Shown here: positions 30,001-33,000 of the stretch, piece by piece
Position numbering within the stretch: position 1 is the first letter of the stretch
Layout: every line of letters starts with the position of its first letter
Position numbers: made by a program
From: Escherichia coli
Lineage (GTDB): Bacteria > Pseudomonadota > Gammaproteobacteria > Enterobacterales > Enterobacteriaceae
NCBI RefSeq assembly: GCF_030013595.1
Contig: NZ_CP122768.1
DNA length: 64,000 nucleotides
Reading direction: 5' to 3' (one strand)

Positions 30001-33000
30001 GTTGCATCGTTGTTGTTTTTCGCTTCCATCGCCCAGCGGAAACCGACGGGATGCGCTTCCGCAGCGTTACCACCCATCACCATTACGACGTTAGCGTTTT
30101 TGATATCCACCCAGTGGTTGGTCATCGCACCGCGACCAAATGTTGGAGCAAGACTTGCTACCGTTGGTCCGTGTCAGACGCGCGCCTGGTTGTCTACCGC
30201 CAGCATCCCGAGGGAGCGGGCAAATTTTTGAGTCAGCATCCCGGTTTCGTTGCTGGCACCGGAGGCACACAGCATACCGGTAGAAAGCCAACGGTTTACC
30301 GTTACGCCCTGCTCGTTCTTTTCAATAAAGTTAGCGTCACGGTCAGCTTTCATCAGCTTCGCAATACGGGAGAATGCTTCTTCCCAGCTAATGCGCTGCC
30401 ATTTGTCAGAACCTGGCGCACGATATTCCGGGTAGCGCAGACGGTTTTCGCTGTTGACGTAATCCAGCAAACCGGCCCCTTTCGGGCACAGCGCACCACG
30501 GCTTACCGGATGATCCGGGTCACCTTCAATGTGATAAATCGCTTCTCTGGCGTTTTTCGCGCCATCACCCAGGCTATACATCAATAGCCCGCAACCTACG
30601 GAACAATATGTGCAGGTGTTACGGATCTCTTTAGCGCGTAATAATTTGTAGTTTCGCGCCTGAGCCAGTGCTTGCTTCGGGGCAAAGCCCAATGCCGCTA
30701 CCGTTGTTCCAGCCATACCGCCCGCGCAGATTTTAAAAAATTGTCTGCGACTGACGTCCATTGCTTTCCTCTTTTTTCAGGGGTATTACTGCGCGAGGAA
30801 ACTAACAGTAAAATTCTGAATCTTTTTGCGCGAAATCAAAAAGAACACGTGTTTGCCACAAAATAATCCGCCTGCGCAAATTGACCTACCTCAATAGCGG
30901 TAGAAAAACGCACCACTGCCTGACAGGCCAGTTAAAAAAATGCTATAAAATTCAGCTTAATTTTTAACGGCAAGAGAGACAAAACAGCGAGCATGACACG
31001 ACAAAAAGCAACGCTCATAGGGCTAATAGCGATCGTCCTGTGGAGCACGATGGTAGGATTGATTCGCGGTGTCAGTGAGGGGCTCGGCCCGGTCGGCGGC
31101 GCAGCTGCTATCTATTCATTAAGCGGGCTGCTGTTAATCTTCACGGTTGGATTTCCGCGTATTCGGCAGATCCCGAAAGGCTATTTACTCGCCGGGTGTC
31201 TGTTATTCGTCAGCTATGAAATCTGTCTGGCGCTTTCCTTAGGATATGCGGCGACCCGTCATCAGGCGATTGAAGTGGGTATGGTGAACTATCTGTGGCC
31301 CAGCCTGACAATTCTCTTTGCCATTCTGTTTAATGGTCAGAAAACCAACTGGCTGATTGTACCAGGATTATTATTGGCCCTGGTTGGCGTCTGCTGGGTG
31401 TTAGGCGGTGACAATGGGTTACATTATGATGAAATCATCAATAATATCACCACCAGCCCATTGAGTTATTTCCTGGCGTTTATTGGTGCGTTTATCTGGG
31501 CAGCCTATTGCACAGTAACGAATAAATACGCACGCGGATTTAACGGAATTACCGTTTTTGTCCTGCTAACGGGAGCAAGTCTGTGGGTTTACTATTTTCT
31601 CACGCCACAACCAGAAATGGTATTTAGCACGCCCGTCATGATTAAACTCATCTCTGCGGCATTTACCTTAGGATTTGCTTATGCTGCATGGAACGTCGGT
31701 ATATTACATGGCAACGTCACCATTATGGCGGTAGGTTCGTATTTTACGCCCGTCCTTTCCTCAGCGCTTGCAGCCGTGCTGCTCAGCGCCCCGCTGTCGT
31801 TCTCGTTCTGGCAAGGCGCGCTAATGGTCTGCGGCGGTTCCCTGCTCTGCTGGCTGGCGACACGTCGTGGCTAAAATAATTGTCGGGTCTACGGCCCGGC
31901 AGTTAAACAGATAAATTCCGACAATATAAAAAAATAAATTTCAAATACCAGTAGTTCACCTTATATTTCATTTCGACTTCGATCACATATCGATAAATAA
32001 TATTATTTCATCTATTTTTCTCATTGTTTTTAATCACCATTCTATTTTAAAAACAGTATGTCATTTATAAATGACGCCGTTTAAAATTCGTTTAGAAAAT
32101 ACGTTTAACGATAATTAAAAGGATTCTGTTAAATGAAATTAAAAATAGTTGCGGTGGTTGTAACTGGTTTGTTAGCTGCGAACGTAGCACACGCTGCCGA
32201 AGTCTATAACAAGGATGGTAATAAACTCGACCTTTATGGCAAGGTTACCGCTCTACGTTATTTTACTGATGATAAGCGTGACGATGGTGATAAAACTTAT
32301 GCCCGTCTCGGCTTTAAAGGAGAAACGCAAATCAATGATCAAATGATTGGTTTTGGTCACTGGGAATATGATTTTAAAGGCTATAACGATGAAGCCAACG
32401 GCTCGCGCGGCAACAAGACCCGTCTGGCCTATGCAGGTTTAAAAATTAGTGAATTTGGCTCTCTGGACTATGGTCGTAACTACGGTGTCGGCTATGACAT
32501 TGGTTCATGGACCGATATGTTGCCAGAATTTGGTGGCGATACCTGGAGTCAGAAAGATGTCTTCATGACATACCGTACTACCGGTGTGGCAACCTATCGC
32601 AACTACGATTTCTTCGGCTTAATTGAAGGTCTGAACTTTGCCGCGCAATATCAAGGCAAAAATGAACGCACTGACAATGGTCATCTTTATGGTGCTGACT
32701 ACACGCGTGCCAATGGTGACGGTTTCGGTATCTCCTCAACTTATGTTTATGATGGCTTTGGTATCGGTGCGGTGTATACCAAATCCGATCGGACAAATGC
32801 GCAGGAAAGAGCCGCTGCTAATCCTCTCAATGCCTCCGGTAAGAATGCAGAACTGTGGGCTACAGGTATAAAATATGATGCCAACAACATCTACTTTGCA
32901 GCTAATTACGCTGAAACATTAAACATGACCACCTATGGCGATGGTTATATCTCTAACAAAGCACAAAGTTTTGAAGTAGTGGCACAATATCAATTCGACT

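What the first reader, a model, noticed from the sequence alone, without database searches (positions are those of the whole stretch)
30125..30173. fdnG UGA selenocysteine recoding site with Tat signal peptide
The two fdnG ORF fragments are joined by an in-frame TGA at 30171-30173 (..QARV-U-HGPTV..), the known Sec codon of formate dehydrogenase-N. This is a programmed recoding event, not a lesion, and it contrasts with the TAG interruptions elsewhere in the window. The N-terminus has a twin-arginine motif (SRRQFFK).
Basis: established knowledge. Interest (0 to 1): 0.2.

Follow-up and report, generated by a model that had tools for sequence, protein, structure and literature searches.

The report
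fdnG selenocysteine UGA and SECIS hairpin

Summary
The finding is real and correctly interpreted, but already known. fdnG lies on the minus strand (30761..27714, 1015 codons). Its only internal stop is TGA at codon 196, at 30176..30174. The stated position, 30171-30173, is the next codon, CAC (His197).

- **Protein:** it matches E. coli FdnG in PDB 1KQF over residues 1-1015 with 3 amino-acid changes. It scores 1622 bits on NCBIfam TIGR01553 (cutoff 814).
- **SECIS:** the 59 nt from GUC-UGA onward score 84.3 bits on Rfam SECIS_3 (gathering score 63). The apical stem-loop starts 11 nt after UGA, with the U17 bulge and G23/U24 loop bases in place.
- **Structure support:** in 66 distinct homologous sites from other genomes, the apical helix pairs in 99.4% of cells, with compensatory changes at two pairs.
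- **RNA-level constraint:** in 28 close homologues, synonymous codons are 98.7% frozen in codons +1..+16, against 50-54% in the flanks.
- **Translation past the TGA:** downstream of it, 60 of 63 codon differences from K-12 are synonymous.
- **Machinery:** selAB, selC and selD occur in at least 5424 of 5426 complete E. coli genomes. The source genome itself could not be checked.
- **Tat motif:** SRRQFFK is present, but Tat HMMs score below their cutoffs.
- **TAG contrast:** three in-frame TAGs (yddB, narZ, rhs) are real CAG→TAG lesions.

Novelty: already known. Interest is low.

The parts
27714..30761 (-). fdnG coding sequence (formate dehydrogenase-N alpha subunit), 1015 codons including UGA-196, TAA stop
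   Evidence: Translation. TIGR01553 scores 1622 bits against a cutoff of 814. PDB 1KQF chain A aligns over 1-1015. The nearest genome annotates it as a single CDS.
30174..30176 (-). UGA codon 196, decoded as selenocysteine (the Mo ligand of the active site)
   Evidence: It is the only internal stop in the frame. The PDB chain has a non-standard residue at the aligned position. Sec-196 was shown by MS, and translation terminates there in a selC mutant (PMC3636253).
30121..30179 (-). SECIS element as modelled by Rfam SECIS_3 (GUC-UGA plus 53 nt)
   Evidence: cmscan gives 84.3 bits, gathering score 63, E 1.1e-20, full model 1-59. The 59-mer is identical in 5432 of 5433 matching E. coli records.
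30145..30162 (-). Apical SelB-binding stem-loop GGUAGCAAGUCUUGCUCC (nt 15-32 from the U of UGA), with bulged U17 at 30160, G23 at 30154 and U24 at 30153
   Evidence: Coordinates. The MFE fold shows it. The helix pairs in 99.4% of cells, with compensatory changes at 2 pairs across 66 distinct homologues. The defining features are taken from PMC8659212.
30111..30179 (-). Block of frozen synonymous sites (codon -1 to +21), slightly longer than the Rfam model
   Evidence: Third positions match in 26-28 of 28 loci inside the block, 13/28 at codon -2 and 5/28 at codon +22. The block is identical in K-12 fdnG and fdoG.
30663..30761 (-). Tat-type signal peptide (residues 1-33; twin-arginine motif SRRQFFK at 30752..30732; hydrophobic stretch; ALA-Q predicted cleavage site)
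   Evidence: The motif is read. Pfam TAT_signal scores 13.1 bits (below 22.7) and TIGR01409 12.3 bits (below 16.7), so the HMMs are sub-threshold. The literature states FdnG carries a typical Tat signal peptide (PMC10609526; PMC3636253). The 33-residue length is from established knowledge, not tested here.
30486..30614 (-). [4Fe-4S] cluster ligands Cys50, Cys53, Cys57, Cys92
   Evidence: Residues checked. Pfam Molybdop_Fe4S4 covers residues 44-104. The ligand assignment is quoted from PMC3636253.
26817..27701 (-). fdnH (beta subunit), next gene of the operon
   Evidence: 100% identical to the annotated fdnH of the nearest genome.
26171..26824 (-). fdnI (gamma subunit, cytochrome b), last gene of the operon
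   Evidence: 100% identical to the annotated fdnI of the nearest genome.

Best explanation
This is the fdnGHI operon of an E. coli strain. Codon 196 of fdnG is a UGA that is programmed to be read as selenocysteine. As the ribosome approaches the UGA, the mRNA just downstream folds into the SECIS hairpin. Its apical stem-loop begins 11 nt after the UGA, with a bulged U17 and G23/U24 in the loop. That stem-loop is bound by the specialised elongation factor SelB carrying Sec-tRNA(Sec), the selC product charged through SelA and SelD. SelB delivers the tRNA to the A site in competition with release factor 2, so translation continues to the full 1015-residue protein. Sec196 becomes the selenium ligand of the molybdenum in the Mo-bisPGD active site. 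The N-terminal twin-arginine signal then directs the folded, cofactor-loaded FdnG-FdnH dimer to the periplasmic face of the membrane via the Tat system.

**Shown here:** the UGA, the hairpin and its conservation and covariation, the protein's identity, and purifying selection downstream of the UGA.

**Inferred from published work on K-12:** SelB binding, Sec insertion and Tat export.
For: - **Single in-frame TGA.** It sits at codon 196 in an otherwise intact 1015-codon frame.
- **Protein identity.** The protein equals FdnG of PDB 1KQF over residues 1-1015 with 3 substitutions, and the PDB chain has a non-standard residue at 196. TIGR01553 scores 1622 bits against a cutoff of 814.
- **SECIS model.** Rfam SECIS_3 scores 84.3 bits against a gathering score of 63, starting 3 nt before the UGA.
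- **Published SECIS features.** The apical stem-loop starts 11 nt after the UGA with U17, G23 and U24 in place. These are the features listed in PMC8659212.
- **Covariation.** Across 66 distinct homologous sites, the apical helix pairs in 99.4% of cells. Two-sided changes occur at pairs 21-33 (GC/AU/GU) and 24-30 (AU/CG/GC), covering 28 cells against 6.8 in shuffles. Sliding the partners drops pairing across the whole structure to 26-50%.
- **Loop bases.** G23 and U24 lie outside my search pattern and are invariant, even though U24 is a synonymous third position.
- **Frozen synonymous sites.** In 28 loci chosen only by flanking protein identity of at least 80%, synonymous codons are identical in 441/447 cases in codons +1..+16, against 50-54% in the flanks. 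The zone has sharp edges.
- **Paralogue.** fdoG shares the identical 69 nt, although the two genes are 74.9% identical overall.
- **Translation past the UGA.** Downstream of it, 60 of 63 codon differences from K-12 are synonymous, where 23% would be expected by chance.
- **Conservation in E. coli.** The 59-mer is identical in 5432 of 5433 matching records.
- **Machinery.** selAB is in 5425, selC in 5424 and selD in 5425 of 5426 E. coli genomes.
- **Published experiments.** Sec, never Cys, was found at position 196 by MS, and translation terminates at UGA196 in a selC mutant (PMC3636253).
Against: - **Folding energy.** Thermodynamics alone is not distinctive. The MFE is -17.4 kcal/mol with z = -0.77 for 59 nt, and z = -1.18 for 45 nt.
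- **Lower helix.** It is only 84-86% paired across homologues. In the Rfam register the E. coli sequence has non-standard A8·C48 and A12·G44 pairs, and its own MFE uses a shifted register.
- **sel genes.** None are in the window and no tRNA was found, so the machinery in the source genome is inferred from other E. coli genomes.
- **Tat HMMs.** They score below their curated cutoffs.
- **Statistics.** The Fisher P value for the synonymous freeze treats related loci as independent.
- **No experiment.** Nothing has been done on this particular strain.
Confidence: 0.97

Rival explanations
1. The TGA is an ordinary nonsense lesion and fdnG is a pseudogene split into two fragments, like the TAG-interrupted genes elsewhere in the window.
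For: Mechanically the ORF list shows two fragments, 30761..30174 and 30125..27714. The same window contains three genuine premature stops.
Against: The TGA and its 59-nt context are identical in essentially every E. coli genome. The same context is identical in 26 loci from other enterobacterial genomes, and K-12 fdoG carries the same sequence. The downstream 819 codons show 60 synonymous against 3 non-synonymous differences from K-12. The TAG lesions, by contrast, are absent from the nearest genome, and two of them are absent from all 5426 genomes. PGAP reads this TGA through but flags the narZ TAG as 'internal stop'.
Confidence: 0.01
2. The nucleotide conservation after the TGA reflects only protein constraint, or gene conversion between fdnG and fdoG. 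The UGA is then read through by a non-SECIS route such as near-cognate tRNA-Trp or tRNA-Cys.
For: The peptide HGPTVASLAPTFGRGAMTNHW is itself highly conserved. The fold's energy is not unusual. fdnG and fdoG share the identical block, as gene conversion would produce.
Against: Protein constraint cannot freeze synonymous third positions: identity is 98.7% inside the block against about 52% in the flanks. Lineages that do change the sequence change both sides of the apical helix together. The block is also identical across distinct genera, which within-genome conversion does not explain. MS never found Cys at 196, and selC mutants terminate there (PMC3636253).
Confidence: 0.01
3. The site is a genuine Sec codon by descent, but in this particular strain it is non-functional because part of the sel machinery has been lost, so only a truncated 195-residue product is made.
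For: The sel genes are outside the window and could not be checked. One or two of 5426 genomes lack a match to each sel query. This strain does carry several private pseudogenes.
Against: Each sel locus is present in more than 99.9% of E. coli genomes. The window's fdnG differs from its nearest relative only at 3 synonymous sites, and fdnH and fdnI are identical to it, so there is no sign of decay.
Confidence: 0.01

Closest known systems
E. coli K-12 fdnG (b1474) Sec196 / SECIS; Berg et al. 1991 J Biol Chem 266:22380 (cited in PMC3636253); structure PDB 1KQF
   Same: It is the same gene and the same codon, with an identical 69-nt block around the UGA. The operon is the same (fdnGHI, divergent from yddG), and the same Cys50/53/57/92, His197 and Arg446 are present.
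   Different: There are 71 of 3048 nucleotide differences and 3 amino-acid differences (L342F, S666A, N933A). This is strain-level variation only.
E. coli fdoG (b3894) Sec196 / SECIS (formate dehydrogenase-O)
   Same: The paralogue has UGA at codon 196 and the identical 69 nt from GUC-UGA to UGG. It belongs to the same Rfam family.
   Different: The genes are 74.9% identical in nucleotide sequence overall. fdoG sits at a different locus, next to fdhD and fdhE.
E. coli fdhF SECIS (Rfam SECIS_2, RF01988), the experimentally dissected prototype
   Same: The architecture is the same: UGA, an 11-nt spacer, an apical stem-loop with bulged U17 and G23/U24, bound by SelB (PMC8659212).
   Different: The window scores only 28.8 bits on SECIS_2 against a gathering score of 70. 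The fdnG apical element is 18 nt, with loop region A-GUC-U, whereas fdhF has 17 nt with GGUC (the fdhF sequence is from my own knowledge). FdhF is cytoplasmic and has no Tat signal (PMC10609526).
Periplasmic Sec-containing formate dehydrogenases with solved structures (e.g. PDB 6SDR, 8CM4, 1H0H)
   Same: They are homologous catalytic subunits aligning along nearly the full length, named by depositors as selenocysteine-containing.
   Different: They are much more distant, at about 960 bits against 2398 for 1KQF.

Membership tests
Bacterial SECIS element (Rfam SECIS_3, RF01989) | Covariance-model score at or above the curated gathering score | tested here: met
   84.3 bits against 63, E 1.1e-20, full-length match 1-59, at 30179..30121 on the minus strand.
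Bacterial SECIS element (Rfam SECIS_3, RF01989) | In-frame UGA immediately 5' of the hairpin, with the apical stem-loop starting 11 nt after the UGA | tested here: met
   UGA is at 30176..30174. The spacer is CACGGACCAAC (11 nt). The stem-loop runs from G15 to C32, window 30162..30145. The spacing rule is from PMC8659212.
Bacterial SECIS element (Rfam SECIS_3, RF01989) | Bulged U17 and loop bases G23 and U24, the SelB contact bases | tested here: met
   All three are present at 30160, 30154 and 30153. G23 and U24 are invariant in 66 distinct homologues, although U24 is a synonymous site. The invariance of U17 in that set is forced by my search pattern and carries no information.
Bacterial SECIS element (Rfam SECIS_3, RF01989) | Helix supported by compensatory substitutions | tested here: met
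   Apical helix: 99.4% of cells paired, 2 of 7 pairs with two-sided changes, 28 cells against 6.8 in shuffles, and slid controls (whole structure) at or below 50% paired. Lower helix: 84-86% paired with an ambiguous register, which is weaker support.
Bacterial SECIS element (Rfam SECIS_3, RF01989) | Binding by SelB and SelB-dependent read-through | not testable with these tools
   This needs a binding or reporter assay. For the identical K-12 sequence, the literature reports termination at UGA196 without Sec-tRNA(Sec) (PMC3636253).
Formate dehydrogenase-N alpha subunit (NCBIfam TIGR01553 equivalog) | Whole-protein score above the curated cutoff, with the Mo-bisPGD domain architecture | tested here: met
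   1622.3 bits against 814.2. Pfam finds Molybdop_Fe4S4, Molybdopterin and Molydop_binding. PDB 1KQF_A aligns end to end.
Formate dehydrogenase-N alpha subunit (NCBIfam TIGR01553 equivalog) | Catalytic Sec196-His197, Arg446 and the four [4Fe-4S] cysteines | tested here: met
   Positions 50, 53, 57 and 92 are Cys; 196 is UGA; 197 is His; 446 is Arg.
Formate dehydrogenase-N alpha subunit (NCBIfam TIGR01553 equivalog) | Operon with the beta (fdnH) and gamma (fdnI) subunits | tested here: met
   fdnH at 27701..26817 and fdnI at 26824..26171 lie directly downstream, 100% identical to annotated genes.
Twin-arginine (Tat) signal peptide | S/T-R-R-x-F-L-K motif followed by a hydrophobic region and an AxA-type cleavage site | tested here: met
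   S4-R-R-Q-F-F-K10, then ICAGGMAGTTVAALGF, then A-L-A33|Q. Six of the seven consensus positions match.
Twin-arginine (Tat) signal peptide | Profile-HMM score above the curated cutoff (Pfam PF10518, NCBIfam TIGR01409) | tested here: not met
   PF10518 scores 13.1 bits against 22.7 (E 0.097). TIGR01409 scores 12.3 against 16.7 (E 0.17). These are short models and the matches are sub-threshold but in the right place. Membership therefore rests on the motif plus the literature (PMC10609526).
Twin-arginine (Tat) signal peptide | Tat-dependent export | not testable with these tools
   Reported for E. coli FdnG in reviews (PMC10609526). The Tat signal peptide is absent from the mature protein (PMC3636253).
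Selenocysteine-decoding organism | selA, selB, selC and selD present in the same genome | not testable with these tools
   They are not in the 64-kb window, and no tRNA was found. In complete E. coli genomes, selAB is in 5425, selC in 5424 and selD in 5425 of 5426, so presence is very likely but inferred.

The most novel reading that the evidence does not exclude
The block of frozen synonymous sites (69 nt, codon -1 to +21) is much longer than the roughly 17-nt element reported to suffice for SelB binding, and a little longer than the Rfam model. It is identical between the fdnG and fdoG paralogues and across many enterobacterial genera. The flanking frozen positions, including the UGA-enclosing lower helix and codons +17..+21, could carry an additional function beyond SelB recruitment. 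Examples would be pausing the ribosome, occluding RF2, or setting the Sec-insertion efficiency. The evidence here does not exclude this, but it is equally compatible with an extended lower stem plus ordinary preference for C-ending codons at +18..+20.
Probability: 0.1. Interest if true: 0.3.

Novelty: already known. Interest (0 to 1): 0.06.

Why it matters
It matters mainly for annotation. A naive ORF caller splits fdnG in two at this TGA, and the gene could be miscalled a pseudogene. The window also gives a clean internal contrast for telling programmed recoding from lesions. The recoded TGA is universal, followed by a covarying hairpin and frozen synonymous sites, and followed by sequence under protein-level selection. 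The three TAGs are derived CAG→TAG substitutions absent from the nearest relative, and one is annotated as a pseudogene elsewhere. No new biology is implied.

Tried and rejected
- **Folding energy as evidence.** The MFE structures agree with the known hairpin, but z-scores of -0.8 and -1.2 are not significant. I relied on the covariance model and comparative data instead.
- **Tat HMMs.** Pfam found nothing on the full protein at E ≤ 0.01, and the Tat model was not among the 25 NCBIfam families listed. Matches on the N-terminal 41 residues alone were sub-threshold.
- **Letter U.** Protein tools reject it. I reran with X.
- **Pooled synonymous-site test.** Over all 103 loci the contrast was diluted (0.59 against 0.43-0.45), because lineages carry different covarying versions. 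I replaced it with a subset chosen by flank identity only.
- **Lower-helix register.** Neither the Rfam register nor the window's MFE register fits all lineages, so I make no claim about a single lower-helix structure.
- **Promoter and terminator scan upstream of fdnG.** It found nothing. An FNR-like half-site, TTGATTTCGCGCAA at 30839..30826 (-), matches with 2 mismatches, but such matches are common in the window, 54 against about 39 expected, so it is only a lead.
- **narZ interruption.** I first read it as a frameshift. The alignment showed a true CAG→TAG substitution plus a separate 1-nt insertion at the gene's end.
- **Amber-suppressor idea for the three CAG→TAG changes.** I considered and set it aside. 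CAG→TAG is the commonest transition route to a stop, one allele is a widespread natural pseudogene, and nothing in the window bears on suppression.
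Full report
**What is in the sequence.** The feature lies on the minus strand. An ORF starts at ATG 30761 and runs to TAA at 27716..27714. It has exactly one internal stop, TGA at codon 196, window 30176..30174. The finding's span, 30125-30173, is the gap between the TGA and the first ATG of the downstream ORF fragment. The local peptide QARV-*-HGPTV and the N-terminal SRRQFFK (residues 4-10, 30752..30732) are as described.

**What the window is.** The region is E. coli. The fdnG query matches 5425 of 5426 complete genomes. The window is 99.92% identical to strain HCP5S3_I2 (NZ_CM149870.1) across the compared 43 kb, apart from an IS200 copy that the window lacks. The gene order is yddG <> fdnG-fdnH-fdnI, then yddM, adhP, maeA and onward. 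PGAP annotates fdnG there as one 3048-nt CDS that runs across the TGA.

**Protein identity.**
- With X at position 196, the translation scores 1622 bits on the NCBIfam equivalog TIGR01553, formate dehydrogenase-N alpha, against a cutoff of 814.
- It has the Fe4S4, Molybdopterin and Molydop_binding Pfam domains.
- It aligns over residues 1-1015 with PDB 1KQF chain A, which also has a non-standard residue at 196.
- Against K-12 fdnG there are 71 nucleotide differences but only 3 amino-acid differences. Cys50/53/57/92, His197 and Arg446 are all present.

**Is the part after the TGA translated?** Downstream of the TGA, 63 codons differ from K-12. Sixty of these differences are synonymous, whereas only 23% of possible single-base changes there would be. 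The 819 codons after the 'stop' are therefore under protein-level purifying selection. That is incompatible with a real terminator.

**The SECIS element.**
- Rfam SECIS_3 (RF01989) matches 30179..30121 on the minus strand, full length, at 84.3 bits. Its gathering score is 63 and the E-value is 1.1e-20.
- The fdhF-type model SECIS_2 scores only 28.8 bits against a gathering score of 70.
- The MFE folds of 59 nt and 45 nt show the same apical stem-loop. Their energies are not unusual (z = -0.77 and -1.18), so thermodynamics alone proves nothing.
- Counting from the U of UGA, the spacer is 11 nt. The apical element is G15-C32 (GGUAGCAAGUCUUGCUCC, 30162..30145). U17 is bulged, and G23 and U24 are in the loop.
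- These are the features the literature lists as defining a bacterial SECIS and as SelB contacts (PMC8659212, citing Liu 1998 and Fourmy 2002).

**Independent comparative test.**
- I scanned one genome per species for GTNTGACAYGGNCCNACNGTNGC, which fixes the peptide V-U-H-G-P-T-V-A but leaves wobble positions free.
- One locus, from Streptomyces, was a chance hit. The rest encode V-U-HGPTVA[SG]LA..FGRGAMTN.
- They give 66 distinct 59-mers, counting the window's own. Twenty-six loci, from Enterobacter, Citrobacter, Yersinia, Photorhabdus, Providencia, Klebsiella, E. albertii and others, are base-for-base identical to the window.
- On the ungapped alignment, the apical helix pairs in 99.4% of cells. 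It has two-sided compensatory changes at pairs 21-33 (GC 52, AU 8, GU 6) and 24-30 (AU 46, CG 18, GC 2). That is 28 such cells against 6.8 ± 2.2 in shuffles. Sliding the 3' partners by 1-3 columns drops pairing for the whole structure to 26-50%.
- G23 and U24 lie outside the search pattern and are invariant, although U24 is a synonymous third position. U17 is fixed by my pattern, so its invariance is uninformative.
- The lower helix is weaker, at 84-86% paired, and its register differs between lineages. GGA/GGU-type sequences, including E. coli, pair A12-U45. GGC/GGC-type sequences follow the Rfam register.

**RNA constraint versus protein constraint.**
- I selected loci only by flanking protein identity of at least 80%, which gave 28 loci with flanks 72-94% identical in nucleotide sequence.
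- Synonymous codons are identical to the window in 441 of 447 cases (98.7%) in codons +1..+16. The figure is 50% upstream and 54% downstream.
- The nominal Fisher P is 6e-104, but the loci are not phylogenetically independent.
- The frozen zone runs from codon -1 to +21 with sharp edges: 13/28 at codon -2 and 5/28 at codon +22.
- K-12 fdoG, only 74.9% identical to fdnG overall, has the same 69 nt around its own UGA-196.
- Within E. coli, the 59-mer is identical in 5432 of 5433 matching records, at a median of two places per genome.

**Selenocysteine machinery.** No tRNA gene, and hence no selC, lies in the window. Using the K-12 genes as queries, selA-selB is found in 5425, selC in 5424 and selD in 5425 of 5426 complete E. 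coli genomes. Presence in the source genome is therefore very likely, but it is inferred. Published work on the identical K-12 sequence found Sec and never Cys at position 196 by mass spectrometry, and termination at UGA196 in a selC mutant (PMC3636253).

**Tat signal.** The motif SRRQFFK, a hydrophobic stretch and an A-L-A|Q site are present. The profile models are sub-threshold: Pfam TAT_signal scores 13.1 against 22.7 bits, and TIGR01409 scores 12.3 against 16.7. Reviews state that FdnG and FdoG carry typical Tat signal peptides and are periplasmic, with FdhE as a likely proofreading chaperone (PMC10609526). I accept the Tat reading on motif plus literature, not on the HMMs.

**The contrast with TAG interruptions.** Three in-frame TAGs exist, and each is CAG in the nearest genome:
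- yddB codon 86, at 1141-1143 (+).
- narZ codon 1043, at 40901-40903 (+).
- An rhs gene, codon 1112, at 51170..51168 (-).

The narZ allele, tested as an exact 61-mer, occurs in 204 complete-genome records, where PGAP marks narZ as a pseudogene with an 'internal stop'. The yddB and rhs alleles occur in none. These are ordinary lesions in dispensable genes. They behave in the opposite way from the fdnG TGA on every test.

**Verdict.** The site is the long-known Sec196 codon and SECIS of E. coli fdnG (Berg et al. 1991, cited in PMC3636253; structure 1KQF). Novelty: already known. Interest is low. The only mildly open point is why the frozen block is longer than the minimal SelB-binding element.

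Noticed in passing
window 40901-40903 (+), narZ codon 1043: An in-frame TAG, where the nearest genome has CAG, truncates nitrate reductase Z alpha. The exact 61-mer with TAG is present in 204 complete E. coli records, where PGAP flags narZ as an 'internal stop' pseudogene. It is therefore a circulating natural pseudogene allele, yet it is absent from the otherwise 99.9%-identical nearest strain.
   Followed up: yes
window 1141-1143 (+), yddB codon 86: An in-frame TAG (CAG in the nearest genome) lies in the TonB-dependent receptor gene yddB, and no complete E. coli genome shares it. The nearest strain has its own, different TAG at yddB codon 322, where the window has TGG. yddB has therefore been knocked out independently in two very close relatives.
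   Followed up: partly
window 51168-51170 (-), rhs gene codon 1112 (gene about 49872-54503): An in-frame TAG (CAG in the nearest genome) splits an RHS repeat protein that sits downstream of vgrG and a DcrB-related gene, a T6SS effector-type cluster. No complete genome shares the allele. The C-terminal part of this gene also carries a cluster of substitutions relative to the nearest strain.
   Followed up: partly
window 1141, 40901, 51170: All three premature stops are C→T changes turning CAG (Gln) into TAG, among roughly 45 SNPs that separate the window from its nearest genome. CAG→TAG is the commonest transition route to a stop, so this may be chance, but three in 64 kb is a high density. I did not test any explanation such as a mutational bias or a suppressor background.
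   Followed up: no
window 41507-41513 (+), end of narZ / start of narY: There is a one-base insertion in an A-run: GCGAAAAAAATGA, against six A in the nearest genome. It lies right at the narZ stop / narY start overlap. It could be a real indel or a homopolymer sequencing error.
   Followed up: no
window about 33269-33275: The nearest genome has an IS200/IS605 tnpA insertion of about 700 bp, between the ompC-like porin gene and a leucine-rich-repeat protein gene. The window lacks it.
   Followed up: no
window 30111-30179 (-): The block of frozen synonymous sites runs from codon -1 to +21 (69 nt). That is about 10 nt past the 3' end of the Rfam SECIS_3 model and far beyond the roughly 17-nt minimal SelB-binding element. 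It is identical in fdnG and fdoG.
   Followed up: partly
alignment A1, columns 7-16 with 41-49 (window 30131-30173): The lower SECIS helix uses different registers in different lineages. GGA...GGU sequences, including E. coli, pair A12-U45 with a bulged G47. GGC...GGC sequences follow the Rfam register with a bulged C14. In the Rfam register the E. coli sequence has A·C and A·G mismatches.
   Followed up: partly
window 30826-30839 (site on minus strand), 65-78 nt upstream of the fdnG ATG: TTGATTTCGCGCAA resembles an FNR site (TTGAT-N4-ATCAA) with 2 mismatches, which would fit anaerobic induction of fdnG. Matches at this stringency are common in the window, 54 against about 39 expected. The sigma-70 scan found no promoter.
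   Followed up: partly
window 47727-49834: The region holds mobile and toxin-type genes: an ISAs1-family transposase (ydcC), a SymE-family type I toxin gene and a small hypothetical gene next to the rhs 3' end. All are identical or nearly identical to the nearest genome.
   Followed up: no
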